This document shows, piece after piece, positions 18,830 through 32,482 of a DNA stretch of 64,000 nucleotides. Source of the DNA: a virus (Duplodnaviria; Heunggongvirae; Uroviricota; Caudoviricetes); the IMG/VR virus record IMGVR_UViG_3300009193_000001. One strand, given 5' to 3'. The notes beneath the pieces were generated by a model. It was not told where the DNA came from. It worked only from the letters and a program-made list of their open reading frames with translations, and searched no databases. The translations under genes were made by a program, and so were the position numbers. The stretch's first letter is position 1; each line of letters opens with the position of its first letter.

Positions 18830-19411
18830 ATGAAGAAGACTAAACTTTTGGCTGGTGTTGGTGTTTGTGATGCCGATTATCCGGTGGTTCGATATCAGCA
18901 GTTGGGTTACGTGGATGGCAAACAAAAACAGAAGCGAGTTTGGGCTTGTAAATTATATGAATGTTGGTCAAACATGATTAGACGCTGTTATTCTGATAGT
19001 AATCCAAGCTACGATAACTGTATCGTAGTTGAAGAATGGCACAAGTTTTCTAATTTTAGAAAATGGGCAATAGAGCAAGATTGGGTAGGTATGTGTTTAG
19101 ATAAAGATATACTTTCGAATGGTCGTAAGATATACTCACCATCAACATGCGTTTTTATTGATTCGAAAACAAACAATTTCATGACAGATAGTAAAAAGGT
19201 TAGGGGTGAGTTTCCGATAGGCGTATCAAAGCATAAATGTACTGGTAAATATAAAGGTCGGTGTGGTGGCAAAGAATTGGGTCTATTCACAACACCGGAA
19301 GATGCTCATGATGCGTGGAAAATAGAAAAAGCAAAACAGGCTGAGTTGTTGGCATTATCACAAAACGATTATAGGGTGGCATACCACATAAGGAGGATAT
19401 ATGAGGTTTAG
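18830..19411 (+). CDS. Free-standing HNH homing endonuclease with C-terminal AP2-like DNA-binding domain
   Basis: WSNMIRRCYSDSNPSYDNCIVVEEWHKFSNFRKWAIEQ...LDKD...GRKIYSPSTCVFI matches the common phage HNH pattern W..M..RCY....Y..YGGRGI.VC..W..F..F..W...GL.IDRID..G.Y.P.NCRW. C-terminus GVSKHKCTGKYKGRCGGKELGLFTTPEDAHDAW is AP2-like. Confidence 0.65.
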   Translation: MKKTKLLAGVGVCDADYPVVRYQQLGYVDGKQKQKRVWACKLYECWSNMIRRCYSDSNPSYDNCIVVEEWHKFSNFRKWAIEQDWVGMCLDKDILSNGRKIYSPSTCVFIDSKTNNFMTDSKKVRGEFPIGVSKHKCTGKYKGRCGGKELGLFTTPEDAHDAWKIEKAKQAELLALSQNDYRVAYHIRRIYEV

Positions 19412-20318
19412 TTATTTTAATGGTTTTTACTCAAACACCGCACAAAAATGTGAAGTTGTGGATTGGGACGAATTTGTTACAATTATGCGAGCTATGTCCA
19501 ATGTTGAAGGGTATAAACCAGCCATGGGCGAATATAAGCGCGAACAGCCATTAATATCACCAGCAATTTACGAAGAAAATATACACCGAACTAACGAAGC
19601 AGTGGTTGGTTGGGATATGATTATGCTCGATATAGATGATGGTATAGATAGCTTAGAGCGAATTAAACAGCACTTTAAGCCGTTTAATTACATTATCTAT
19701 TCAACTGCCAACTGTACGTTAGCAAAGCTCAAAATACGTGTGTGTATACCGTTAAATCAACATGCACCAAAGAAAGAACTTCATGGCCTATGGTACGCCT
19801 TAAATCTTTGGTGTTCTGGTATATTAGACGCACAAACTAAAGATAAATCACGTATGCATTACATACCAGCGATGTATATAAATAAAGGTAGCGATTATAA
19901 CCATACGTTTATTGTTAATGATGGTATAGATTTGGATTGGTCTGGGCTGATGGCGAAATATCCGGCACCACCAGAAAAAGATAAATTTAAGGTAGTAAAT
20001 CCTTTACGTGATTTGAAACGTAAGGTATACTTGGGCGCTAAGGCTAAGCCGACCATCAATATAGCCGACAAGAATTGCCCGTTCGTCTACCAAAACATGA
20101 TAGATGATTATCGGTTAACTCCGGCTGGTGGACATCATGGTGCCATATATAAATTTATGGTAATGTGTTGTTACAATGCAGCGAAGATTGACTACCCAAT
20201 ATCTACTGATGAATTGGTTGATATGGCAGAACAACTCGATGCGATAGATGGTGGTTTCTATGACCAGAAAAAATTATACGGTAATGCAGTTGATGCATTA
20301 AATTACACATGCGTTTAG
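19401..20318 (+). CDS. Putative archaeo-eukaryotic primase (AEP/PrimPol)-like domain protein
   Basis: Ordered motifs hhhDhD (IMLDIDDG), sxH (SRMHY about 75 aa later) and a downstream hD (IVNDGIDL), consistent with AEP motifs I-III. Motif-only call. Confidence 0.3.
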   Translation: MRFSYFNGFYSNTAQKCEVVDWDEFVTIMRAMSNVEGYKPAMGEYKREQPLISPAIYEENIHRTNEAVVGWDMIMLDIDDGIDSLERIKQHFKPFNYIIYSTANCTLAKLKIRVCIPLNQHAPKKELHGLWYALNLWCSGILDAQTKDKSRMHYIPAMYINKGSDYNHTFIVNDGIDLDWSGLMAKYPAPPEKDKFKVVNPLRDLKRKVYLGAKAKPTINIADKNCPFVYQNMIDDYRLTPAGGHHGAIYKFMVMCCYNAAKIDYPISTDELVDMAEQLDAIDGGFYDQKKLYGNAVDALNYTCV

Positions 20319-22678: not shown

Positions 22679-22921
22679 ATGATGAACGACACAGAACTAA
22701 AAACTTTCGTAGAAGACCTTAGTGGTTGGTACGATGGCAGAAAAGAAAACCTTCAAGAAGTACTAAAAAATATCGAAGGCAAAGAAAAATTAACTTTGGA
22801 TTTTGGTGATGATTTACAAATTAAACTAAAAAACAAACAAGAAATTAATGCTTACCGTATGGGTATCATTAGTGCCATATCTGCCTTTGGCGATTTTCCA
22901 GTTAGTATTGAAAATAAATAA
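22679..22921 (+). CDS. Hypothetical protein
   Basis: 80-aa ORF, GGAGAA RBS. Confidence 0.45.
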   Translation: MMNDTELKTFVEDLSGWYDGRKENLQEVLKNIEGKEKLTLDFGDDLQIKLKNKQEINAYRMGIISAISAFGDFPVSIENK

Positions 22922-22930
22922 AATAAACTG

Positions 22931-22964
22931 TTGACTTTTATCTATGGGTCTATATAATGGACCC
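22931..22964 (+). promoter_or_regulatory. Promoter TTGACT-16-TATAAT with IR gggtc/gaccc; duplicate of the 1348 cassette
   Basis: TTGACT 22931-22936, TATAAT 22953-22958; identical leader ccatattcaagagaaactaa. Confidence 0.6.
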
Positions 22965-22995
22965 ATATTCAAGAGAAACTAAACCGGAGTAACAT

Positions 22996-23493
22996 ATGGA
23001 ATCATTTAAAATAGGCAGAGAAAACAGAGCAACATTAAATGTGGATTTAACGACTGCAATTGATGAGCATTTCCATTATATGGGTATGGGTGACCATACA
23101 ATTAAGGTTCCATGTATATGTACCAATGAATATGTATGTGTAATGTGTAATAAATCTAAAGACTTGTGGGTCGAACGTGGAGATAGAGGTTTGGCTATAC
23201 ATCATGCCAGAAGAACCACCACCACATTCACCGTGACCGTAATCGATGACCCATCAGACCAAACCAATAATGGTAAGAAATTTAAGTTGGTTGTTGGACG
23301 GGGGTTATTGAAGAAGATTGCCGCAGTTAGCGCAAAATATAATGACGTAGTTTTACATTTACTAAATACACCTAAAGGATTCGGGTCTAGAACTTTTCCA
23401 GATTATTCTAATAGTACAATATCAATACCAAAAGAAACAATCACAAACCAATTAGCTATGGATTTATTCGAAGCAACAGAAGGCGAACTATAA
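22996..23493 (+). CDS. Hypothetical protein
   Basis: 165-aa ORF downstream of the duplicated promoter/leader cassette 22931..22995. Confidence 0.5.
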   Translation: MESFKIGRENRATLNVDLTTAIDEHFHYMGMGDHTIKVPCICTNEYVCVMCNKSKDLWVERGDRGLAIHHARRTTTTFTVTVIDDPSDQTNNGKKFKLVVGRGLLKKIAAVSAKYNDVVLHLLNTPKGFGSRTFPDYSNSTISIPKETITNQLAMDLFEATEGEL

Positions 23494-24227
23494 TGCAAGA
23501 CTTAGACCGAGTTAAACGTAAAATAGCAAAGCTAATGAATTTGGCTGCAGGTACATCGAACGAACATGAAGCCGATAATGCCATGCGAAAAGCTGGTGGG
23601 CTTATGAACAAATTCCACGTTGAAGGTGCTGCTGATTGGGACAAGAAAATTGTATTAATCGAAAAAGCATTTGGCACCCGTAAGATTGCCAAGGCCCACG
23701 AAAAGAAATTGTTCTGGGCGATATGCGAAAGTGTCGGTGTGTATGGTTTACATACTTCATCGCAGAAAGCATATACATATTGGGATGGGTTCGCTTATGT
23801 GAATGCTGAAGGTGTGCCATGTAAATTTAGGTTGGTTGGTCACCCGAGCGACATAGATATTGCTTGGTATATGTTTGAAGTGTGTCTATCACAGGTACAG
23901 AAACAAACTACCATCTATGGCCAAGGTAAGAAGCTTAAGCGTTCACAACTGAATGATTATGCAATGGGCCTAGTGTTTGGTTTATCTGCTAGATTTAAAG
24001 CTATGCAGTCCAAATGTAATGAGGTTGGTACTGGTTTAGTGCCAGTAGATACCAGAAAAGATGACGCTGAATCATTTTATGCATCCGAAGGTGGCAAAGT
24101 AAAATCGAGCAGTATGACTGTACGTAACAACGACTTTCTACATTCTGGTGTGAAAGATGCTAAAGATATTCGTGTCAATGCTGGCGTAGAAGCAACCAAA
24201 CCAAATAAAACTTTGAGATTGGGGTAG
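23493..24227 (+). CDS. DUF2786-like domain protein
   Basis: N-terminus RVKRKIAKLMNLAAGTSNEHEADNAMRKAGGLMNKF fits the DUF2786 pattern (KI.KLLALA.ST.NE.EA..A..KAQELM.K). Confidence 0.45.
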   Translation: MQDLDRVKRKIAKLMNLAAGTSNEHEADNAMRKAGGLMNKFHVEGAADWDKKIVLIEKAFGTRKIAKAHEKKLFWAICESVGVYGLHTSSQKAYTYWDGFAYVNAEGVPCKFRLVGHPSDIDIAWYMFEVCLSQVQKQTTIYGQGKKLKRSQLNDYAMGLVFGLSARFKAMQSKCNEVGTGLVPVDTRKDDAESFYASEGGKVKSSSMTVRNNDFLHSGVKDAKDIRVNAGVEATKPNKTLRLG

Positions 24228-24230
24228 TAT

Positions 24231-24536
24231 ATGGACGAGAAAGCTGTTATCATAATCCGGTACATTGGTCAGAACATAGAACAAGTAGTTCTTGATGAAT
24301 TAGACGGAATGTATGATTTATCTGTGCGAGAGTTCCAATCCCATCTTCACTGGCTAATTAAAAATAAATATGTCCGCGAAGAAAAAGCGACATTACGTAA
24401 ATTTAGGTATTTACATTTAGAACCACTTGGTTTAGAATACTTTAAATCGGATATAACTGAAATTAAGGAGAAGTCAAAATGTGTAACCAAACCAACGAAA
24501 CAAAAATCGGGTCTGATAACGGGAAGTTTCAGGTAG
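24231..24536 (+). CDS. Hypothetical protein
   Basis: 101-aa ORF. Confidence 0.4.
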   Translation: MDEKAVIIIRYIGQNIEQVVLDELDGMYDLSVREFQSHLHWLIKNKYVREEKATLRKFRYLHLEPLGLEYFKSDITEIKEKSKCVTKPTKQKSGLITGSFR

Positions 24537-25138
24537 ATTTAGATGTAATGCATATGTACCCACATGTACATACTATATATTGCCCACAAAAAGCAGCCAG
24601 AGAAAAGCAACACAAAATTGACCGTGTTCGATTAAAACAGGCTGAGAGCGAATCTGAGCTTACTAACTGCATAAAGCATGCAGTTGGGTGCATAATCACA
24701 GATAAGCATGGCAGAATCGTTTCTACTGGACGTAACGGTACGCCAGAAGGTATAGAAAATTGTTCTGAGCGTTTTAGTAGCAAAAGGATGCGAATCGAAC
24801 GACTTAAGTTTAACATTAAGCATTCTATCGGTTCGGTTAATGCCACACAACGTGCGGAACTTGAAAAGATATACTTAGAGCATCATGAATGGTCTGCGGC
24901 AAATGAAATTCATGCTGAAATTAATGCCATCATTCATTCTAGCCCAGAAAAACGTGCTGGTGGTACATTGTATGTAAACTTGCAACCATGTCCTGTGTGT
25001 GCTAAAGTGATTGCGAATTCTGGCGTTAGTCGAGTAGTGTTCGGTAAAATGTACGAACGTTCAGATAGCGCAGCAACCCAAGCAATGTTCGATGCGAAAA
25101 ATATCGAATATATTTTTATACCTAACTTACTGGATTGA
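24479..25138 (+). CDS. cd: dCMP deaminase (T4 cd-like)
   Basis: Zinc-binding motifs HAEINAI and LQPCPVCAKVIANSGVSRVVF (T4 Cd: HAELNAI, LSPCPDCAKAIAQSGIKKLVY). Alternative start at 24548. Confidence 0.8.
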   Translation: MCNQTNETKIGSDNGKFQVDLDVMHMYPHVHTIYCPQKAAREKQHKIDRVRLKQAESESELTNCIKHAVGCIITDKHGRIVSTGRNGTPEGIENCSERFSSKRMRIERLKFNIKHSIGSVNATQRAELEKIYLEHHEWSAANEIHAEINAIIHSSPEKRAGGTLYVNLQPCPVCAKVIANSGVSRVVFGKMYERSDSAATQAMFDAKNIEYIFIPNLLD

Positions 25139-25142
25139 TATT

Positions 25143-25706
25143 ATGTTATACCAAAAAGACTGCCCAAGATGTGGCGACCCAATGATACGAACGTCTAAAG
25201 ATACACATTATTGCGATTGGTGTGATATTAGAGTAGATGAAAACGCAAACCAGTTCTTCTTGATATGGGTATTGATGGCCATACTTATTATGTTTGGTGT
25301 TGCGTCGAAGCCAGCAGAAGCAAACGACGAAGTTAAATATATGGCAGAAGCTATTTATTTTGAAGCTCGGAACCAAGCGTTGGTTGGACAGGTTGCTGTT
25401 GGATGTGTAATTAAAAATAGAGTTGAGCATAGGCGATGGGCGAATAATGTCCGCGACGTAGTGCATCAACCAAAACATTTTAGTTACTATTCTGATGGTA
25501 AGCCTGAAGTGTATAATGACACAAAAGCCCATTATATTGCTGTACAAATGGCATTGCATGTATTAAACTCTGATGCATGTGATATGTACGACAAGATTGA
25601 CCATTACATCAATCATGATATTGCAAACCCAAAGGCCACTTGGTATAAACAAATGAAGTTTATTATGAAAGTTGGCGAACACTCATTTTACAAAAGTATT
25701 AAATAG
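25143..25706 (+). CDS. SleB/CwlJ-family cell-wall hydrolase with N-terminal zinc ribbon and TM segment
   Basis: CPRCG...HYCDWC zinc ribbon, hydrophobic FFLIWVLMAILIMFGVA, then EAIYFEARNQALVGQVAVGCVIKNRVE...VVHQPKHFS typical of Hydrolase_2 (SleB). Confidence 0.5.
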   Translation: MLYQKDCPRCGDPMIRTSKDTHYCDWCDIRVDENANQFFLIWVLMAILIMFGVASKPAEANDEVKYMAEAIYFEARNQALVGQVAVGCVIKNRVEHRRWANNVRDVVHQPKHFSYYSDGKPEVYNDTKAHYIAVQMALHVLNSDACDMYDKIDHYINHDIANPKATWYKQMKFIMKVGEHSFYKSIK

Positions 25707-25715
25707 GAGAAATTT

Positions 25716-25970
25716 ATGAATAAGAAATTCAAAAGCAAGAAATTTGTAAGAAGATTACCAGTACGTGTGGTACGATATAGCCCAGTGTCAAATGCGTTTT
25801 TATTTGAAGGTAAAGTGTTTGGTTTCGAGTTTGACCAAGCGCCATCAACGACTAGAATGATTGCGCAATCATTGGTACAAACTAAAGGCCGTGCATATTA
25901 TGGCCACAACGCAAGAGCCGAAGAATTACCAAACTTCTTTAAGCCTTCGGTAATTAAATTTACATATTAA
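25716..25970 (+). CDS. Hypothetical basic protein
   Basis: 84-aa ORF with AGGAGA RBS. Confidence 0.45.
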   Translation: MNKKFKSKKFVRRLPVRVVRYSPVSNAFLFEGKVFGFEFDQAPSTTRMIAQSLVQTKGRAYYGHNARAEELPNFFKPSVIKFTY

Positions 25971-25986
25971 ATAAATAAATAAAAAC

Positions 25987-26020
25987 TTTACTTTAAACTT
26001 TAAGGGTGTATACTACACCC
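25987..26020 (+). promoter_or_regulatory. Promoter TTTACT-16-TATACT with IR gggtgta/tacaccc overlapping the -10
   Basis: -35 25987-25992, -10 26009-26014, IR 26004-26020. Confidence 0.45.
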
Positions 26021-26061
26021 AACTTAGAAAATACTTATTATTAACCAAAAGGAAACATATT

Positions 26062-26562
26062 ATGTCAAACACAGATATCAAACACACTGGTCTTAAAGCA
26101 CGTTTAGAAGCATTACCAAAAGAACAAGCAGCTACAGTTGGTGACTTGTTAGAATTAGCGAACATCGTTAATCACAACATCTATAAAGCTAGCGATGGTG
26201 CCAAAAAATTACAGGCAAAATTAGACCATCAAATGACCATCAATAAAGGCTTAATTGAAACTATGTCTATTATGTCTAAAAACATAACTAACATGGGTGG
26301 ACGTATTGAAAGTGTATGGGACACCGTAAATGTAATCGATAAAGATTTAGATGGTGCGTATGATGACATCAATCTATTAAATAGCGAAGCCGACATCAAG
26401 TATGTGCGCCCTAGCGATTTAATAGACGAAGACGAAGTCGTATGTTATGTTGATAAAGGTCGTGGTGATTGTACTGGCGTATGCACATTACAATTCACCG
26501 ACAACGATGGTAAAGCGTACGACTTCGATATCGGTAACTTAAGCAACTATATCGTCGAGTAA
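26062..26562 (+). CDS. Hypothetical protein in an autonomous promoter-ORF-terminator unit
   Basis: Promoter with IR at 25987..26020, RBS AAGGAAA, intrinsic terminator at 26574..26604. Confidence 0.55.
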   Translation: MSNTDIKHTGLKARLEALPKEQAATVGDLLELANIVNHNIYKASDGAKKLQAKLDHQMTINKGLIETMSIMSKNITNMGGRIESVWDTVNVIDKDLDGAYDDINLLNSEADIKYVRPSDLIDEDEVVCYVDKGRGDCTGVCTLQFTDNDGKAYDFDIGNLSNYIVE

Positions 26563-26573
26563 TACTGTCTTTT

Positions 26574-26604
26574 GGTGGGGATTTATTCTCCACCATTTTT
26601 TTTT
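26574..26604 (+). terminator. Rho-independent terminator
   Basis: Stem ggtgggg / ctccacc (one G-U) with 7-nt loop, followed by T9. Confidence 0.7.
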
Positions 26605-26624
26605 CTTTATAATGTGAGGTTGTT

Positions 26625-27164
26625 ATGGCTATTCCAGTTGAGGTAATTGAAATTAAGCGCAAAACAATGGGACTATGTCACCAAGAAAGAGATATAGATT
26701 TCATGACTATGAATCGAGACATGCTACGAACAACCAATGGTATGTTTTTATCTGGCGAAGCTGCATACGATGAAGTTGTGGCCGAGCGACAAAGTAGACG
26801 AGCTGTCCACATCAGAGATAATCGAGGCCAAGATAAATTTATTGTATGGTCTCCAGAGTTTGAAGAGTTTGTTGGAGTTGGGTTAAATATAATCGAAGAG
26901 CTTCAAGCAGAAATCAAGCAGAAAAGTCTTGACAATCACTTCTTGAAGTCGGAGCTAAACAATAGTAAAATATTAGTAGCCAGCGAAAAGAAGGCCCACG
27001 ATAAAACTAAAAATTTATTGGATGGATGGCAGTCGATTGCTGAACGATTCAAGTGTAGATTACACCGAGCAAGAAAGGTATCATTTACACTGAAGGTTGG
27101 TAGCCTTTTCGCTATATATGTTTACGGTTGTATCGTATATGTCGGCACCGTGGGGTTATCTTGA
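26625..27164 (+). CDS. Hypothetical protein with C-terminal hydrophobic segment
   Basis: 179-aa ORF; C-terminus SLFAIYVYGCIVYVGTVGL hydrophobic. Confidence 0.45.
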   Translation: MAIPVEVIEIKRKTMGLCHQERDIDFMTMNRDMLRTTNGMFLSGEAAYDEVVAERQSRRAVHIRDNRGQDKFIVWSPEFEEFVGVGLNIIEELQAEIKQKSLDNHFLKSELNNSKILVASEKKAHDKTKNLLDGWQSIAERFKCRLHRARKVSFTLKVGSLFAIYVYGCIVYVGTVGLS

Positions 27165-27495
27165 GCGTACATTTTGAGCCAATAATTGAAGTGATGCGAG
27201 TATACACCGATGGTGGTAGTTACGAGCAGAAATCCTCATTTGTTGCAGTGGCTACAATTGTATGGGACAGCGAAACCCAAGTAACTCTAAAGGGGTTGCA
27301 TGGTGATGTTAATAAGAGTATACTACTTACGGTTAAAGAAGCTTTACGTAATCGTGGCGTTACTCATTACAGACAATACCGCAATAACAGATGGCAAACC
27401 AAACCTTGTTAGGAGTGTGTGATGCGAAAACGAAAAACGAAGAGCTACGCTGCATGCATTAAAGCAATCCAACCCAACATTAGGAAAACCGAACC

Positions 27496-28491
27496 ATGAA
27501 ATTGATAATAGCCGGAGGTAGACATTTCGATGATTATCAGCTATTATTAGAGTCGTTCGATTTTGGTGTATGTTGGGAGTTCGGTGAAGTGGATTGTATA
27601 TTTAGCGGTTGTGCTAAAGGTGCAGACTCATTAGGCGAACGTCTAGCGAAAGAACGTGGTATACGAGTAAGTAGATTCCCAGCAAATTGGGATTACCATG
27701 GCAAGAAGGCTGGTATATTACGAAACGAAGAAATGGCAGAATGGGCCGATGGTCTGTTAGCGTTTTGGGACGGGGAATCTACCGGAACTAAGCATATGAT
27801 TGATTATGCTAAATCTATGGGCTTAATCGTCCACGTTGTAATGTATGATAAGGAGAAGAAAGTGGATGTACCATTAAATGTAATTATAGATTTCGAAACG
27901 GTAGATAAAATACCGACTGCGGCAGTTGCGTCTATGGCGGTTATTGTATTCGACCCTAGCGTAGTGCAAGATTTCGACAATCTAGTAAAAAACTCGTTCC
28001 GTATAAAATTTAATTTGGCCGAGCAATATAGTATGGGTCGAACGTGGGAACAGTCGACTGTGGATTGGTGGATGGCCCCAGAACAGGCAGACGCGTTTCA
28101 GCGAGTGATTGTACCAAGCACTGACGATGTTTCTATTAATGAGCTGCCTATTAAGCTTAAACAATATCTAGACCGTATGGGATACAAACCAAACGTTGGC
28201 GAAAAGATATATGCTCGTGGTAATGCTTTCGATATGCCATTAATGGAAAATATTTTTACTTCCCTTGGAGCTGAAGCTGTGTTACCTTGGTGGGGTTATC
28301 GAGATGTTCGTACAGAAATTGACGCTATTGCGCCATACTGGAACCCAGAACATAAAGCATGGGGAAACATGAATTGCTTTGTACCGCCAGCTAGTTTTGT
28401 GAAGCATATAGATACACATGATTGTGCTATTGATGTTATAAAGATGCAATACGCACACCTTAAACTAATGAAACATTTTGGGATGATATAA
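27496..28491 (+). CDS. dexA: Fusion ORF: N-terminal SLOG/DUF2493-like domain plus C-terminal DexA-like exonuclease
   Basis: N-terminal 115 aa IIAGGRHF...SGCAKGADSLGERLAKERGI...FPANWDYHGKKAGILRNEEM...FWDGESTGT match the DUF2493/SLOG pattern. From residue 116, VPLNVIIDFETVDK...AVIVFDP...IKFNL matches T4 DexA (MFDFIIDFETMG...AVIAFDP...IKFDL). Internal AAGGAG RBS plus in-frame ATG 27841 / GTG 27862. Confidence 0.6.
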   Translation: MKLIIAGGRHFDDYQLLLESFDFGVCWEFGEVDCIFSGCAKGADSLGERLAKERGIRVSRFPANWDYHGKKAGILRNEEMAEWADGLLAFWDGESTGTKHMIDYAKSMGLIVHVVMYDKEKKVDVPLNVIIDFETVDKIPTAAVASMAVIVFDPSVVQDFDNLVKNSFRIKFNLAEQYSMGRTWEQSTVDWWMAPEQADAFQRVIVPSTDDVSINELPIKLKQYLDRMGYKPNVGEKIYARGNAFDMPLMENIFTSLGAEAVLPWWGYRDVRTEIDAIAPYWNPEHKAWGNMNCFVPPASFVKHIDTHDCAIDVIKMQYAHLKLMKHFGMI

Positions 28492-28895
28492 TGATTGAAG
28501 TTAAAATAGGTGATGTGGTTAAAGTAACCGTATCCGATACATTACCATACGCCAACCCATACCGTAAAGGTACAACTGGCGTAGTCAAAGCTATATCTTT
28601 GTCTGGTAGAGTTGTATTGCTTAAAGTACGCGGACAGCATAATAAAGTTACTGTTCCGTTGTATCATTTAAAATTTCACCAAATACCAAAATTTGTTGTT
28701 GACATGAGAGACAGTCATGGTAATATTGTTCAAGCAAAAGTCGGTGACCTATTTGCTGCTTATAGTTTCTCGAAGAAACGTGTTATGGTGGTTCGCATAG
28801 AATCAATCAAGAAGCGGTTTAGTTTGGATGGGTGGAAGAACTCACCGAAAGCAAGCCAATGTATATTTATAGGAGAATATCATGCAAGAGATTAA
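28491..28895 (+). CDS. Hypothetical protein
   Basis: 134-aa ORF, ATGA overlap with the upstream gene. Confidence 0.45.
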   Translation: MIEVKIGDVVKVTVSDTLPYANPYRKGTTGVVKAISLSGRVVLLKVRGQHNKVTVPLYHLKFHQIPKFVVDMRDSHGNIVQAKVGDLFAAYSFSKKRVMVVRIESIKKRFSLDGWKNSPKASQCIFIGEYHARD

Positions 28896-30303
28896 AAAAA
28901 TTATTAATAATGTTATGTTACTTGGTACATCAAGAAATACTCGTGCCGGAGTAACCACCAGTAAGTTTTTCGAAACTGTATCGTTTAACCTACAAGATGG
29001 GTTCCCTGCAGTTACTTGTAAACAATTGGCGTTTAAGTCTATGATGGGTGAATTGTTACTATTTTGTGGTGGTGTGGCAGACCGTCGATTGATGAGCGAA
29101 AACTTCAATGATTCCAATTGGGATATATGGAAGCAAGATTGTGAGAGAAAATCGAAAGAAGACCCATCAAGGTTTAATGGTTATAATATGGGCGAAATGT
29201 ATCCAGAAATGTGGAGAATGCGTAGAATATCTCCCAGCGGAACAATAGAACTAAAACCACGAACAGATTTAGATTCCAACGAAACGGTAAAAGGTATACC
29301 CAGTGTTTGTGGTTTTGGTATTAATGATTATCCTGATGGTCGAAGAGAAAATCCAAAAATATATAGAATATGGATGGATATGATTATTCGATGTTATGGT
29401 TCCAGACCGCACCATAAAAAATATAGAGAAAATGGTTGTTCGGTGAGTCCTAGATGGCAATCGTTTAGAAACTTCTACAATGATGTGTTTTCGATTTCGG
29501 GTTTTCAAAGTTGGGTGGATGATAGTGGAAATTTCTCTTTAGATAAAGATTATTTTGGGTCTAATGTATATTCTAGAAATACTTGCATATTTTTAGAATC
29601 GAACATAAACAGAAAATTAAATGGGGGTGGGCAAGGTCTTCGAATATTTAAGGTAGGTGATGATATACTATTCGGCCTACAGGAATTAGCCGATAGATTT
29701 GATACGTATAGACAACATGATTTGGTTGGTCGATTACTTAAGAGTGGGTGTGATTTTATTGAGATATATGACAGTGTGGATGTAATTTATAGACCGAAAA
29801 TATTTGTAGACCAATTACAAGATGCAATTGATAAATTAATAAACGACCCAACTGGTCGATACGCCTTAATCGATAATTGGAACATCGATTATAAGAAAAA
29901 GGCAGTGTTGGGTGCTTGCCATAATATGTTACAGTTTTATGTTAGAGATGCCGGAGGTAAGAAATATTTAGATATGGCTTGGCACCAACGCTCTGTGGAT
30001 GTATTTCTGGGCCTTCCTTTTAATATTGCTAGCTATGCAGCACTAGTACACATATTAGCTCAAATTTGTGGGTATGAAGTTGGTATGCTGCATGGTACAT
30101 TGGGCGATGTACATATTTATGAGCAACATGTAGATGGATGCACAGAATATCTAAGCCGTGATTGTTTAGAACTGCCACAGCTATTTATTATGCCTGATGT
30201 TAATTCTCTTAGCGATTTGGAGAAATTAACCGCCAAGGATTTTTCTTTGGTTAATTATAAACATCATGGTAAAATTGCTGGTAAACTTAGTGTAGGTAAC
30301 TAA
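28882..30303 (+). CDS. td: Thymidylate synthase (ThyA/td-like) with an in-frame HNH-endonuclease-like insertion of about 185 aa
   Basis: ThyA blocks: RTGTGT-like RAGVTTSKFF, FNLQDGFPAVTCK, ELLLF, DQLQDAIDKLINDP, ACHNMLQFYV (catalytic Cys), QRSVDVFLGLPFNIASYA, GDVHIYEQH. An HNH-like segment is inserted between the WRMR... and DQLQ blocks. Confidence 0.8.
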   Translation: MQEIKKIINNVMLLGTSRNTRAGVTTSKFFETVSFNLQDGFPAVTCKQLAFKSMMGELLLFCGGVADRRLMSENFNDSNWDIWKQDCERKSKEDPSRFNGYNMGEMYPEMWRMRRISPSGTIELKPRTDLDSNETVKGIPSVCGFGINDYPDGRRENPKIYRIWMDMIIRCYGSRPHHKKYRENGCSVSPRWQSFRNFYNDVFSISGFQSWVDDSGNFSLDKDYFGSNVYSRNTCIFLESNINRKLNGGGQGLRIFKVGDDILFGLQELADRFDTYRQHDLVGRLLKSGCDFIEIYDSVDVIYRPKIFVDQLQDAIDKLINDPTGRYALIDNWNIDYKKKAVLGACHNMLQFYVRDAGGKKYLDMAWHQRSVDVFLGLPFNIASYAALVHILAQICGYEVGMLHGTLGDVHIYEQHVDGCTEYLSRDCLELPQLFIMPDVNSLSDLEKLTAKDFSLVNYKHHGKIAGKLSVGN

Positions 30304-30318
30304 ATATTTGGAGGTATA

Positions 30319-30522
30319 ATGTTAAAAATTTATATAGCTAAAGGGTTATCTACAATACAAAATTCTAATATAACAACTAAAGATATATTAATCGAAGATG
30401 TTGTGGTTACTCCAACTGGTGTATGTACTTGTAATTTTTATTATGAATCGAATCAATACAGTTTCAGGTTTGATGTTGGTCATGAAGGTGAAGGTTTATG
30501 TATTTATGGATTTACATACTAA
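30319..30522 (+). CDS. Hypothetical protein
   Basis: 67-aa ORF with GGAGG RBS. Confidence 0.4.
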   Translation: MLKIYIAKGLSTIQNSNITTKDILIEDVVVTPTGVCTCNFYYESNQYSFRFDVGHEGEGLCIYGFTY

Positions 30523-30536
30523 ATAAAAATAAGTAG

Positions 30537-30576
30537 TTGACAGTATCTTGGGGTCATGTATAATGGCTCCAAGATA
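30537..30576 (+). promoter_or_regulatory. Promoter TTGACA-16-TATAAT; conserved cassette copy 3
   Basis: TTGACA 30537-30542, TATAAT 30559-30564, IR tcttgg/ccaaga, leader to ATG 30596. Confidence 0.65.
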
Positions 30577-30595
30577 AACAAACGGAGAAAAGAAT

Positions 30596-30814
30596 ATGGT
30601 TACAACAATAGAAAAAGTTATGGTTGGTGTAGTTCTAGTATTAAGCGTTGTTATGGTGACATCATGTAATTTCGCAATCTCTGGCTTCAAGGAAATTGAA
30701 GACAGAGAACAGGCTAAGTTTGATGCGTGTATGGTTAAGAATCATAAAGAAGGCATGGACGTGAAGGCACAGTTAGAAGCTGTTAATCTATGCGACAAAA
30801 TTAAAGAGCATTAA
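30596..30814 (+). CDS. Small membrane protein
   Basis: 72 aa, N-terminal hydrophobic VMVGVVLVLSVVMVTSC; downstream of conserved promoter/leader cassette 30537..30595. Confidence 0.5.
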   Translation: MVTTIEKVMVGVVLVLSVVMVTSCNFAISGFKEIEDREQAKFDACMVKNHKEGMDVKAQLEAVNLCDKIKEH

Positions 30815-30826
30815 ACGGAGAACGTT

Positions 30827-31171
30827 ATGAAAGAACTATCAAAGAAAGAACAACTCGAAGTAATCTTAAAGCGTAAACTTGCTACTGGTGAGAAATTACA
30901 CTCACAAGATGTAATTGATATTATGGCGGTATTTAACAAGCCAGCAGACCTTAAAGGTACCGTTATGGGTATATCTATTAAGCATGGTTTACACTCGATA
31001 GAAAATATCGGATACCACGAGCCACAATTGAGAGTTCGTGGTGTACCAGCCATATCGTATGAGGTTGAGGTTAAATTATATAACCCAACATCAGAACAAT
31101 TACTTGAGGCACATAATATGATGCGCAATTCTAGAGGCCCACAAGTAGTCTCAATCAATCTGGAGGAATAG
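30827..31171 (+). CDS. Hypothetical protein
   Basis: 114-aa ORF, ACGGAGAA RBS. Confidence 0.45.
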   Translation: MKELSKKEQLEVILKRKLATGEKLHSQDVIDIMAVFNKPADLKGTVMGISIKHGLHSIENIGYHEPQLRVRGVPAISYEVEVKLYNPTSEQLLEAHNMMRNSRGPQVVSINLEE

Positions 31172-31173
31172 TA

Positions 31174-31554
31174 ATGACCGGATTTGAATTTGAAGTATTA
31201 AATACGATTACTTATTTCGTATATGTAATTATCTCAATCGTGCTGTTCTTCTTGGCAAAGAAACAATGGGACGAACTAAAATGGTCTTGGTTATTTTCAG
31301 CGATTGTTATATCAACATTAGTTTCTTATAAAATGTTCTTTACTTTATCAGAACGAACAGATATAATTAAGCAACAGTCGATAATGATGGGGCAAAGCAA
31401 CCAAATAATAAATGATAAAGTACTTGACAGTTACTTAAAAGTAGCTACAATACAACCAATCGACGAAGTAGCTCAACGTGAAGCTGAGTTACTGAAGCAA
31501 AAACAGAAAAACGAAGAACTAATTAAACAATCATTCTCAAAAGGAGAAAAGTAA
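31174..31554 (+). CDS. Membrane protein
   Basis: Two hydrophobic segments (YFVYVIISIVLFFLA; WLFSAIVISTLVSY) then coiled-coil tail. Confidence 0.5.
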   Translation: MTGFEFEVLNTITYFVYVIISIVLFFLAKKQWDELKWSWLFSAIVISTLVSYKMFFTLSERTDIIKQQSIMMGQSNQIINDKVLDSYLKVATIQPIDEVAQREAELLKQKQKNEELIKQSFSKGEK

Positions 31555-31555
31555 T

Positions 31556-32482
31556 ATGAAGTCACGTAATATTTTTAGAGCAATCGCAATGAGCGCAATC
31601 GTACTATTCGCATCAGCATGTTCAGACTACCGCACAATTCCGGTATCGACAGTTGGTAAAGTTGTAAGTAACTCTGGCGTATCAAAAGAAACGTACCAAG
31701 CAGGTACTCGTGACATCGGTTGGAACATGAAGTATACAAGCAAATTGGTACTACTTGATACAGCGGTTGAAATTATCCCTCTAAACTTAGATATTCGATT
31801 GAGTGACAGTCAAGAGTTAGGTATCGAATTGTTAGTGAAGACGCAATTAGATTTAACTGATAGCGCATCAATTGATAGTATGTTTGGTTTAGTTACTCCG
31901 GTCGCTTCAGGCAACAATACACTCAAGATTCCGCTTACTCTGGTATACGCAAAACTTGGCCAAGATTTAGCCAGACGAACATTAGTTGAAGTTGTTACGC
32001 CACAGACGTTAGAAAGCTTCCAAACCAACCGTAAAGAAATCAACGACAAGATTGAGCAGATTATTGCCGAACGATTTAAGAATACGCCATTGAAATTATA
32101 CTCTGCCACGATTAACCGCGTAGTGTACCCAAAAACGTATATTAATAGTTCGAATGAAATCAAGACCCAAGAAATGTCAGTAGCATTAAAACAAGCCGAA
32201 GAAAAAGCGAAACGTGCTAAACTGTTAGAAGAAGAAATTACCATCGAAATCGACCAACGTGTTCGACTAGCTAAAGCAAAAACAATTCGATTAGAAAATG
32301 CAGAAACATCTGCTGGCCTAAATCCAATGTTACTAGAGTACCGTAAAATGGAACTAGAAGAAAAGCGTTTAGAAGTTGATATGGAATTTGCGAAAAACTC
32401 GGGCAAGAATGGTAACACTGTTTATTACCCAGTTGGACAAAAGCCGACATACATCGATACTCTGATGGGCCAGAAAAAATAA
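31556..32482 (+). CDS. Lipoprotein with SPFH/band-7-like architecture
   Basis: Signal peptide plus lipobox (LFASAC), central beta-rich region, C-terminal Glu/Lys/Ala-rich coiled coil as in SPFH/flotillin-like proteins. Confidence 0.4.
   Translation: MKSRNIFRAIAMSAIVLFASACSDYRTIPVSTVGKVVSNSGVSKETYQAGTRDIGWNMKYTSKLVLLDTAVEIIPLNLDIRLSDSQELGIELLVKTQLDLTDSASIDSMFGLVTPVASGNNTLKIPLTLVYAKLGQDLARRTLVEVVTPQTLESFQTNRKEINDKIEQIIAERFKNTPLKLYSATINRVVYPKTYINSSNEIKTQEMSVALKQAEEKAKRAKLLEEEITIEIDQRVRLAKAKTIRLENAETSAGLNPMLLEYRKMELEEKRLEVDMEFAKNSGKNGNTVYYPVGQKPTYIDTLMGQKK

What the first reader, a model, noticed from the sequence alone, without database searches (positions are those of the whole stretch)
28882..30303. 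Thymidylate synthase interrupted in-frame by an HNH homing-endonuclease-like domain, with a free-standing homolog at 18830..19411
The thyA product is 473 aa against about 264-290 for canonical ThyA. All ThyA blocks are present and collinear, including catalytic Cys, PFNIASYA and GDxHIY. About 185 aa, roughly nt 29250-29830, are inserted between the WRMR(ISPSGTIE) block and DQLQDAIDKLINDP. The insert carries the pattern KIYRIWMDMIIRCY...Y.ENGCSV..RW.SFRNF...LDKD...YSRNTCIF. This is clearly homologous to the N-terminal HNH module of the free-standing HNH+AP2 gene at 18830..19411 (KLYECWSNMIRRCY...YDNCIVVEEWHKFSNF...LDKD...YSPSTCVF). The site is in the variable small-domain loop of TS, where for example L. 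casei TS tolerates a 50-aa insert. T4 carries a group I intron with a GIY-YIG endonuclease in td; here the endonuclease-like module is instead fused in-frame. No canonical intein junctions (N-terminal Cys/Ser, C-terminal HN followed by C/S/T) are visible. It is therefore either a non-canonical intein, a domesticated non-splicing domain insertion, or a TS with an appended DNA-binding/nuclease function. A free-standing gene and an in-frame copy in the same genome is the classic signature of homing-endonuclease mobility.
Basis: partly seen in the sequence, partly recalled or inferred. Interest (0 to 1): 0.75.

Follow-up and report, generated by a model that had tools for sequence, protein, structure and literature searches.

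The report
Endonuclease-like module embedded in thymidylate synthase
A phage thymidylate synthase gene carries, in frame in a surface loop, a folded ~190-residue DNA-binding and nuclease-like module of the kind found in free-standing phage "homing endonuclease" genes; it is neither an intron nor an intein, and it belongs to a large, apparently undescribed family that has moved between thymidylate synthase genes.

Summary
ORF 28882..30303 encodes a 473-aa ThyA with all catalytic residues. About 197 aa sit between the YxxxWR motif and the DQLQ helix, where insert-less relatives have 5-33 aa.

The insert is not a group I intron and not an intein. AlphaFold2 predicts a confidently folded two-part module packed on an intact TS core. 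The first part is a helical domain ending in a beta-beta-alpha element with a near-invariant D-K-D...Y...N motif and no His. The second is a NUMOD-like helix-turn-helix.

The same module occurs as whole free-standing phage proteins, including 18830..19411 (34% identity). It also occurs at exactly this loop in at least 67 distinct 50%-identity TS clusters, among them RB49 td, Asteriusvirus, Vibrio phages and a bacterial chromosome.

Its distribution on the TS tree is patchy. A syntenic relative of this phage has an empty site. Insert and core trees conflict with 90-100% bootstrap support. In close pairs the insert is at least as conserved as the enzyme core.

Best reading: a homing-endonuclease-like mobile module kept in the mature enzyme without splicing. 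Nuclease activity is unproven. The "HNH" label is only weakly supported, and this copy is old.

The parts
28882..30303 (+). thyA/td ORF, 473 aa plus stop. The start overlaps the upstream ORF (28491..28895) by 14 nt.
   Evidence: ORF; TS models; the identical protein P0002 is on metagenome contigs up to 102,856 bp
28882..29217 (+). TS core, N-terminal part (aa 1-112, up to the W111-R112 motif). Contains R21, E57, W83 and Y107.
   Evidence: profile positions 1-119; invariant columns; matches L004 TS residues 1-129
29218..29808 (+). Inserted segment (aa 113-309, 197 aa) replacing a 5-33-aa loop. It includes two beta-strands (aa 121-124 and 302-305) that form the stalk leaving and re-entering the TS core.
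   Evidence: loop lengths; no counterpart in the syntenic relative L004; secondary structure, pLDDT
29302..29622 (+). The 'DKD' domain (aa ~141-247): a helical bundle (aa 158-213) followed by a beta-hairpin and helix (aa 218-246). Near-invariant residues are W164, M167, R170, W192, F198, D221-K222-D223, Y230, T234 and N243.
29644..29766 (+). C-terminal sub-domain of the insert (aa ~255-295): a beta-hairpin plus two helices, positionally equivalent to the I-HmuI NUMOD-like DNA-binding domain.
   Evidence: E255-258, E261-264, H266-272, H278-288; PF22083 at the same position in TS homologues P0076 and P0044, but not detected in the window protein; weak hits to the I-TevI DNA-binding domain
29809..30300 (+). 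TS core, C-terminal part (aa 310-473). Contains R326, C346 (nucleophile), H347, R370, D373, N381, D409, H411 and Y413.
   Evidence: aligns to E. coli TS 109-259; 62% identity to L004 TS 124-286
18830..19411 (+). Free-standing paralogue (193 aa): the DKD domain (aa ~24-118) plus a C-terminal region that looks AP2-like by eye only.
   Evidence: ORF; E=3e-11 to the insert; phrog_953, E=1.4e-70; HMM E=1e-21; no Pfam or NCBIfam family

Best explanation
The gene encodes a working thymidylate synthase. Its surface loop between the YGxQWR motif and the DQL helix (E. coli residues 100-109) carries a complete, independently folded homing-endonuclease-like module. The module has a helical/beta-beta-alpha 'DKD' domain followed by a NUMOD-like helix-turn-helix, which is the same architecture as many free-standing phage genes. 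It is translated and stays in the mature protein, with no RNA or protein splicing. This is possible because the loop is naturally length-variable and a two-strand stalk holds the module away from the catalytic core.

The module belongs to a large family resident at this one site in td/thyA genes of many phages and some bacteria. Over evolutionary time it has been gained, lost and swapped between td alleles.

The likely mechanism, which is inferred and not shown, has four steps:
1. The module binds the td sequence of insert-less alleles and probably cuts it.
2. Recombinational repair from the insert-bearing allele copies the module in.
3. The insertion destroys the target site.
4. The TS homodimer would present two modules.

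Shown here: the anatomy, the fold confidence, the intact TS residues, the family distribution, the empty site in a syntenic relative, the tree conflict and the purifying selection. Inferred: DNA binding, cleavage and homing. This particular copy is old, not a recent invasion.
For: TS is intact:
- PF00303 scores 207.5 bits and TIGR03284 scores above its cutoff.
- Catalytic residues fall in invariant columns.
- The AF2 full-length model has pLDDT 94.7 and pTM 0.92, with the insert folded. The insert alone has pLDDT 93.9.
- An insert-bearing TS sits in a bacterial chromosome beside rpoD, which implies such enzymes work.

The module resembles a homing-endonuclease gene:
- It matches PHROG families of phage 'HNH endonuclease' genes at E=1e-14 to 1e-23.
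- BFVD Foldseek gives 79 hits at E<=1e-3. These are mostly whole free-standing phage proteins, a few of them named homing endonuclease or NUMOD-like.
- 15 of 84 free-standing relatives carry PF22083. The same domain sits at the equivalent position in TS homologues.

The family is large and the site is fixed:
- There are 3950 cluster representatives at E<=1e-3. Of the best 150, 67 are TS with the domain at TS-profile position ~121-123.
- 66 of the 120 best TS homologues are long.
- RB49 td is 410 aa, Asteriusvirus 517 aa and Vibrio phage D181 477 aa.

Signs of mobility:
- The nearest TS cores to the window protein lack the insert (P0008 and P0011).
- L004 is collinear with window 22.7-32.5 kb, its flanking genes are 68-69% identical, and its td has an empty site.
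- Long and short TS are interleaved on the core tree. With/without pairs reach 83% core identity.
- P0072 vs P0027 is 75% in the core but 27% in the insert. P0072 vs P0101 is 65% in the core and 62% in the insert.
- Bootstrapped NJ shows conflicts. Insert splits (P0072,P0101) 100% and (window,D148) 97% oppose core splits at 90% and 94%.

Selection:
- In close pairs the domain is as conserved as the core or more so, for example 94% vs 84%.
- The D-K-D/Y/N motif is conserved in >=97% of the 125 TS-embedded copies and 90-98% of the 94 free-standing copies (N243: 88% and 86%).
- RB49 carries a decayed, truncated version, as expected late in a homing-endonuclease life cycle.
Against: - No nuclease activity is demonstrated for any member of this domain family.
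- There is no histidine at the His-Me position; K222 is invariant there.
- No Pfam or NCBIfam nuclease model matches.
- hhalign against a canonical HNH gives 0.06% probability.
- Free-standing relatives often carry two tandem copies, which suits a DNA-binding repeat as well as a nuclease.
- Strong purifying selection on the insert is not what a purely selfish, post-fixation endonuclease gene is expected to show.
- The trees are NJ on short alignments. Core recombination rather than insert movement could produce some of the conflicts.
- No near-identical genome pair differing only by the insert was found.
- Composition shows no recent transfer.
Confidence: 0.55

Rival explanations
1. Domesticated DNA-binding domain. 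The module no longer acts, or never acted, as a nuclease. It gives TS a second job, such as tethering dTMP synthesis to phage DNA or the replisome, or regulating expression. Its patchy distribution would come from ordinary recombination between td alleles and occasional deletion.
For: - There is no catalytic His and no detectable HNH profile similarity.
- The insert is at least as conserved as the enzyme in close pairs.
- It adopts a fixed, confident orientation on the TS core (pTM 0.92).
- Tandem copies occur in free-standing relatives.
- It is present in a bacterial chromosomal thyA.
- The same domain is fused to another folate enzyme, FolD.
- His-Me fingers that lost catalysis but kept DNA binding are documented, for example Smad MH1 (PMC5714182).
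Against: - A near-invariant acidic D-K-D plus Y and N on a beta-beta-alpha element is more typical of a metal or active site than of a plain DNA-binding surface.
- The best solved-structure neighbour, PacI, is an active His-less enzyme that uses a loop Tyr.
- Repeated gain, loss and swapping at a single site and decay in RB49 fit a selfish element better than an adaptive domain.
- The closest relatives of this phage do without the module.
Confidence: 0.3
2. Non-canonical intein. The insert is removed from the protein after translation by an unusual splicing or cleavage chemistry.
For: It is an in-frame, endonuclease-like insertion at a conserved site of an essential enzyme with patchy distribution, which is the population signature of inteins.
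Against: - No Hint or intein Pfam model matches at E<=1.
- The predicted fold is helical plus beta-beta-alpha plus HTH, not the all-beta Hint fold.
- Junction residues vary across homologues. There is no conserved Cys/Ser/Thr at either junction and no His-Asn.
- The stalk strands and the module pack confidently on TS (pTM 0.92).
Confidence: 0.03
3. Group I intron, separate ORF or assembly artefact that happens to read through in frame.
For: T4 td and other phage TS genes do carry group I introns with endonuclease ORFs (established knowledge; PMC2988022).
Against: - Rfam finds no intron or any credible RNA family in 28500-30700.
- The frame is open throughout.
- The identical protein occurs on 7 independent contigs.
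- The insert is conserved and co-varies as protein across dozens of lineages, and it folds at pLDDT ~94.
Confidence: 0.01
4. Decaying remnant. The module is an inactive relic of an old endonuclease invasion, kept only because precise deletion is rare.
For: - This copy is old and ameliorated.
- RB49's copy has lost K222, Y230, N243 and the HTH sub-domain.
Against: In the window protein every family-invariant residue is intact. The insert is 59% identical to that of Vibrio phage D148, while the cores are only 43-46% identical. Close pairs show no relaxed constraint.
Confidence: 0.08

Closest known systems
Inteins carrying homing-endonuclease domains (for example in phage and bacterial RNR, DnaB and terminase genes)
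   Same: In-frame insertion of an endonuclease-like module at one conserved site of an essential nucleotide-metabolism enzyme. Patchy distribution, and module history uncoupled from host-gene history.
   Different: No Hint splicing domain and no junction nucleophiles or His-Asn. The module is predicted to remain in the mature enzyme as a loop domain.
T4 td group I intron with I-TevI (and the Bacillus phage thyA introns)
   Same: The same host gene (td/thyA) is targeted by a mobile endonuclease element.
   Different: Those elements are removed at RNA level, use a GIY-YIG enzyme and sit at a different site. Here no intron RNA is detectable and the insert is coding.
Free-standing phage homing-endonuclease-like genes with NUMOD-type DNA-binding domains (I-HmuI relatives; PHROGs 953, 2081 and 374; window gene 18830..19411)
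   Same: The same DKD domain and, in many, the same NUMOD-like partner. The predicted fold of the whole insert matches whole proteins of this kind.
   Different: Those are separate genes between host genes. This one is embedded in frame inside an enzyme. The family's nuclease activity has not been shown, as far as I could find.
LAGLIDADG ORFs fused in frame to mitochondrial rps3 in Ophiostoma and relatives (Gibb and Hausner 2005, cited in PMC7902536)
   Same: A homing-endonuclease coding sequence sits in frame within a host protein gene without splicing.
   Different: Different endonuclease family, different host gene and an organellar setting. It is a few sporadic cases rather than a large family at one loop of an enzyme.
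PacI-type His-less His-Me finger nucleases (PDB 3m7k; group 20 of PMC5714182)
   Same: It is the best solved-structure neighbour of the insert. It has a beta-beta-alpha element without the catalytic His, a conserved Tyr in the loop between the strands, and an associated HTH-like domain.
Known length variants of ThyA (L. casei 50-aa small-domain insert, eukaryotic inserts, DHFR-TS fusions)
   Same: They show that TS tolerates extra sequence on its surface. The WR-DQ loop is naturally 5-33 aa in insert-less relatives.
   Different: Those are short segments or end-to-end fusions without a DNA-binding or nuclease-like fold. The L. casei insert is in the preceding loop.

Membership tests
Thymidylate synthase ThyA (PF00303 / TIGR03284) | Profile match above the curated cutoff across the whole fold | tested here: met
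   PF00303 scores 207.5 bits (cutoff 24.3) in two stretches. TIGR03284 scores 177.2 bits (cutoff 108.35). The protein aligns to E. coli, T4 and L. casei TS structures.
Thymidylate synthase ThyA (PF00303 / TIGR03284) | Catalytic Cys and the dUMP/folate-binding residues (E. coli R21, E58, Y94, R126, C146, R166, D169, N177, H207, Y209) | tested here: met
   R21, E57, Y107, R326, C346, R370, D373, N381, H411 and Y413 lie in invariant columns of alignment A4. The R127 equivalent is Tyr (GRY) here and in D148.
Thymidylate synthase ThyA (PF00303 / TIGR03284) | dTMP synthesis activity | not testable with these tools
   Needs a thyA complementation test or an enzyme assay.
Intein | Hint splicing domain (blocks A, B, F, G) | tested here: not met
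   No Hint or intein Pfam model matches at E<=1. The predicted fold is helical plus beta-beta-alpha plus HTH.
Intein | Conserved nucleophile at intein residue 1 and at the +1 extein residue; C-terminal His-Asn | tested here: not met
   Junction residues vary among homologues (…G-T-I-E/L-K…, …Y-R-P-K-I-F/V-D-Q…), with no conserved C/S/T and no HN.
Intein | Protein splicing | not testable with these tools
   Needs intact-mass measurement or a Western blot.
Group I intron | Ribozyme core detectable by covariance model; interruption of the reading frame | tested here: not met
   Rfam with permissive thresholds finds only one chance-level lncRNA hit. The ORF is continuous.
HNH / His-Me finger nuclease | Sequence-profile membership (Pfam HNH families) | tested here: not met
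   No HNH Pfam or NCBIfam hit in the insert, in the free-standing gene or in 84 free-standing relatives. hhalign against a canonical HNH gives probability 0.06%. Only the PHROG family labels say 'HNH endonuclease'.
HNH / His-Me finger nuclease | Beta-beta-alpha-metal topology with structural similarity to solved members | tested here: inconclusive
HNH / His-Me finger nuclease | Catalytic His at the end of strand 1 (or a documented substitute) plus a metal-binding Asp/Asn | tested here: inconclusive
   His is absent and K222 is invariant in its place. D221, D223, Y230 and N243 are near-invariant. PacI uses a loop Tyr instead of His (PMC5714182). Equivalence has not been verified.
Homing endonuclease gene (functional class) | Occupies one specific site in a conserved host gene; sporadic presence/absence among close relatives | tested here: met
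   The TS-profile position is the same in all long TS. The syntenic relative L004 has an empty site. With/without pairs reach 83% core identity.
Homing endonuclease gene (functional class) | Element phylogeny incongruent with host-gene phylogeny | tested here: met
   Bootstrapped NJ conflicts at 90-100% support. Identity contrasts point the same way. The method is simple NJ, so this should be repeated with likelihood methods.
Homing endonuclease gene (functional class) | Site-specific DNA cleavage of the empty allele and super-Mendelian inheritance | not testable with these tools
   Needs biochemistry and phage crosses.
I-HmuI NUMOD-like DNA-binding domain (PF22083) | Profile match | tested here: inconclusive
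   Pfam does not detect it in the window protein. It is detected at the equivalent position in TS homologues P0076 (E=9e-13) and P0044. The window region aligns with it in A5 and has the same beta-beta-alpha-alpha pattern.
AP2 domain (claimed for the free-standing gene 18830..19411) | Profile match to PF00847 | tested here: not met
   No Pfam family matches at E<=1. Only a weak PHROG 99 hit covers aa 130-168.

The most novel reading that the evidence does not exclude
This would be a third way for a homing endonuclease to live inside an essential gene. It uses neither RNA splicing nor protein splicing. Instead the element persists as a tolerated, folded loop domain of the host enzyme. The DKD-Y-N domain would be a new His-less beta-beta-alpha nuclease. 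The obligate TS dimer would supply the two active sites needed for a double-strand break in insert-less td alleles.
Probability: 0.3. Interest if true: 0.85.

Novelty: new variant of a known kind. Interest (0 to 1): 0.62.

Why it matters
If the module is an active homing nuclease, these genes show that a selfish endonuclease can colonise an essential enzyme with no splicing machinery at all, simply by landing in a permissive loop. That would widen the accepted repertoire beyond introns, inteins and free-standing genes. It would also explain many over-long or mis-annotated phage genes; the Vibrio phage copies, for instance, are annotated only as 'HNH endonuclease'.

It would also define a large, experimentally untouched nuclease or DNA-binding domain family of about 3950 50%-identity clusters. 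The natural target would be known in advance, namely the td loop-coding sequence, which is attractive for specificity studies.

If the module is instead a domesticated DNA-binding domain, it points to an unrecognised link between dTMP synthesis and DNA. That link would be testable in tractable phages such as RB49, since RB49 and other cultured E. coli phages carry versions of the insert.

Tried and rejected
- Group I intron: the Rfam scan was negative.
- Intein: no Hint model, no junction residues, wrong fold.
- Recent duplication from the free-standing gene: only 34% identity. On the domain tree the two copies are far apart.
- Recent horizontal acquisition: GC and GC3 are unremarkable and there are no boundary repeats.
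- Nucleotide-level relatives: there are none in the phage collection. No close protein relatives turned up in IMG/VR or JGI metagenome contigs.
- The word-indexed search with the insert alone found essentially nothing. The exhaustive HMMER search was needed.
- Genome-collection scans gave nothing. The insert alignment had no usable conserved stretch, and P0081 found nothing.
- The afdb50 fold library was unavailable.
- The D181 'four places per record' lead turned out to be short intergenic repeats, and its neighbouring HNH gene is unrelated.
- Six literature searches found no description of a TS with this insert. The RB49 genome paper is not held.
- Model coordinates are not exposed. I could therefore not measure the geometry of D221, K222, D223, Y230 and N243, nor the position of the module relative to the dimer axis.
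Full report
**Observation**

The window contains an uninterrupted ORF at 28882..30303 (+) of 473 aa. Pfam's thymidylate synthase model matches it in two separated stretches at 207.5 bits. NCBIfam TIGR03284 scores above its cutoff. Solved E. coli, T4 and L. casei TS structures align to its C-terminal half, with query residue 309 corresponding to E. coli 109.

Between W111-R112 and D310-Q311 there are 197 residues. Insert-less relatives have 5-33 there, and E. coli has 10. This is the loop after the YGxQWR motif (E. coli 100-109). It is not the L. casei small-domain insert, which lies before that motif (offsets, plus my own knowledge of L. casei numbering).

The insert resembles the free-standing gene at 18830..19411. 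BLASTP gives 34% identity over 102 aa at E=3e-11. A family HMM finds exactly these two copies in the 64-kb window.

**What the insert is not**

A permissive Rfam scan of 28500-30700 finds no group I intron or any credible RNA family. The identical protein is present on seven independent metagenome contigs. No Hint or intein model matches. The junction residues vary between homologues, with no conserved nucleophile and no His-Asn. Base composition is ordinary: GC is 0.341 against 0.374 +/- 0.029 for windows of this size, and there are no boundary repeats.

**Anatomy**

AlphaFold2 was run with an alignment of 58 homologues. The full-length model has pLDDT 94.7 and pTM 0.92. The insert alone has pLDDT 93.9.

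- Two strands (aa 121-124 and 302-305) form a stalk out of the TS core.
- A helical bundle follows (aa 158-213).
- It ends in a beta-hairpin plus helix (218-221, 236-239, 240-246).
- A second small unit of a hairpin and two helices comes next (255-288).

The first unit carries the family's near-invariant residues: W164, M167, R170, W192, F198, D221-K222-D223, Y230, T234 and N243. They are conserved alike in 125 TS-embedded and 94 free-standing copies.

The second unit sits where TS homologues P0076 and P0044 have a significant Pfam I-HmuI NUMOD-like domain. The window's own copy is too diverged for Pfam to detect.

All TS catalytic residues lie in invariant columns: R21, E57, Y107, R326, C346, R370, D373, N381, H411 and Y413.

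**Is it an HNH nuclease?**

The evidence for this label is weak.

- The name comes from PHROG families 2081, 953 and 374, matched at E=1e-14 to 1e-23.
- No Pfam or NCBIfam HNH model matches the insert, the free-standing gene or any of 84 free-standing relatives.
- hhalign of the family profile against a canonical HNH gives 0.06% probability.
- No solved structure matches by sequence.
- Foldseek against the PDB finds nothing significant.

The position where His-Me enzymes carry the catalytic His holds an invariant Lys. PacI, however, is an active member that lacks the His and uses a Tyr in the loop between the strands (PMC5714182), and this family has an invariant Tyr (Y230) in that loop. Catalysis is therefore neither supported nor excluded. 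The strict conservation of an acidic D-K-D with Y and N suggests a metal or active site rather than a plain scaffold.

**The module as a free-standing gene**

Foldseek against predicted viral structures gives 79 hits at E<=1e-3. Most are whole free-standing phage proteins of 160-300 aa. A few are named homing endonuclease or NUMOD-like, and some hits are other phage thymidylate synthases.

Among the 83 non-TS proteins in the best 150 family representatives, plus the window's own free-standing gene (84 proteins scanned):
- 15 carry PF22083 and 2 carry NUMOD1.
- 11 have two tandem copies of the domain.
- One is fused to FolD.

**The family in thymidylate synthases**

An exhaustive HMMER search with the insert finds 3950 cluster representatives at E<=1e-3. 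Of the best 150, 67 are TS with the domain at the same TS-profile position, ~121-123. Of the 120 best TS homologues of the whole protein, 66 are long (451-613 aa), and all have the insert at this site.

Cultured examples include RB49 and other Krischvirus td (410 aa), Asteriusvirus (517 aa), and Vibrio phages D181, D148 and D69 (477 aa, annotated only as 'HNH endonuclease'). One insert-bearing TS (P0081) lies in a bacterial chromosome next to rpoD and type IV pilus genes. That argues such enzymes are functional.

I found no paper describing this architecture.

**Evolutionary behaviour**

The closest TS cores to the window protein are short, insert-less proteins. P0008 and P0011 are 50-53% identical in the N part and 62-64% in the C part. 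The closest insert-bearing one, D148, is 43-46% identical in the core but 59% in the insert.

P0011 lies on a contig (L004) collinear with window 22.7-32.5 kb. Its flanking genes are 68-69% identical. It is thus a related phage with an empty site.

On an NJ tree of the TS core, long and short proteins are interleaved. With/without pairs reach 83% core identity.

Insert and core histories disagree:
- P0072 vs P0027 is 75% in the core and 27% in the insert. P0072 vs P0101 is 65% and 62%.
- In bootstrapped NJ, insert splits (P0072,P0101) at 100% and (window,D148) at 97% contradict core splits at 90% and 94%. Several other clades are congruent.
- On a domain tree, TS-embedded copies form a few large blocks rather than mixing freely with free-standing ones.

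In close pairs the domain is as conserved as the core or more so, for example 94% vs 84%. RB49's copy has lost K222, Y230, N243, R170, C171 and the whole second unit.

Taken together, the pattern is a site-specific element with long vertical runs, occasional replacement or loss, purifying selection in most lineages and decay in some.

**Interpretation**

The best-supported reading is a homing-endonuclease-like module that resides in frame in a permissive loop of a working TS and is retained in the mature enzyme.

- Shown: anatomy, fold confidence, intact TS residues, fixed site, family size, empty site in a syntenic relative, tree conflict and conservation.
- Inferred: DNA binding by the module, cleavage of insert-less td alleles, copying by recombinational repair, and use of the TS dimer to bring two modules together.

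The main rival is a domesticated DNA-binding domain with a host-beneficial role. It explains the strong conservation and the missing His, but it explains the patchy, incongruent, single-site distribution and the RB49 decay less well. A non-canonical intein, an intron or artefact, and a dead relic are each unlikely for the reasons given above.

In-frame, unspliced endonuclease ORFs have a precedent in fungal mitochondrial rps3 (PMC7902536). I therefore rate this as a new variant of a known kind rather than categorically new.

**Limits**

- The trees are NJ on 105-280 columns.
- No near-identical genome pair differing only by the insert was found.
- Nothing biochemical is known for this domain family.

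Noticed in passing
L001:3947-5380 (Vibrio phage D181; the same in D148 and D69): The 477-aa insert-bearing thymidylate synthase is annotated only as 'HNH endonuclease'. Its TS core is unusually diverged (PFNIASY becomes FYNIWSY, GDxHIY becomes KDAHTY) while its insert is 59% identical to the window's. It shares the R127-equivalent Arg-to-Tyr change (GRY/SRY) with the window protein.
   Followed up: partly
L002:2501-3733 (RB49 td, 410 aa): RB49 and other Krischvirus Td proteins carry a shortened, degenerate version of the insert. K222 is replaced by S, Y230 by L, N243 and the NUMOD-like unit are missing, and R170/C171 are lost. It looks like a decayed copy in a well-studied phage that has apparently never been commented on.
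   Followed up: partly
L004:1-12341 (GCA_027943315.1, contig BOPT01002267.1) vs window 22682-32464: A related phage contig is collinear with the window: dCMP deaminase, DUF2786, a 331-aa YAcAr/Rv2179c-like gene, td and a Band_7 gene, at 30-69% protein identity. Its td has no insert.
   Followed up: yes
L021:10001-11587 (Logan SRR20911780 contig; the same gene is on a 1.33-Mb contig): An insert-bearing TS of 528 aa (P0081) lies in a bacterial chromosome between a Pnkp-like RNA-repair gene and a thioredoxin-like gene, near rpoD, ankyrin-repeat genes and a type IV pilus cluster. The organism was not identified.
   Followed up: partly
Proteins P0060, P0163, P0184, P0191, P0198, P0216, P0232: Some insert-bearing TS have a second, smaller insertion (~25-55 aa) at TS-profile position ~174-175, in the C-terminal half of the enzyme.
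   Followed up: no
Proteins P0004-P0013, P0017, P0025 and others: Many TS inserts are 235-285 aa. They carry an extra ~70-aa beta-rich module (pattern G.y.V......y.vqF..TGy...) in front of the DKD domain. The window's insert lacks it. Its nature was not determined.
   Followed up: no
Protein P0201 (472 aa); one further family member with a weak DHFR hit: The DKD domain also occurs at the N-terminus of a FolD (methylene-THF dehydrogenase/cyclohydrolase) protein, and in one protein with a weak DHFR match. All are folate or thymidylate enzymes, like TS. This could reflect targeting of conserved nucleotide-metabolism genes, or a functional link.
   Followed up: partly
window 18830-19411 and 19401-20318: The free-standing DKD-domain gene overlaps the next ORF (305 aa) by 11 nt and has no Pfam or NCBIfam family at all. 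Its C-terminal 'AP2-like' stretch (GVSKHKCTGKYKGRCGGKELGLFTTPEDAHDAW) is recognisable only by eye.
   Followed up: partly
window 27496-28491: The gene two positions upstream of td encodes a 331-aa fusion of a YAcAr (SLOG-like) domain and an Rv2179c-like exonuclease domain. It is 68% identical to its L004 counterpart. The function is unknown.
   Followed up: no
L001:3676-3731 and 3834-3890 (upstream of D181 td): A 57-nt inverted repeat at 75% identity flanks the short ORF just upstream of the D181 td gene. Similar short sequences occur at three other places in that phage genome.
   Followed up: no
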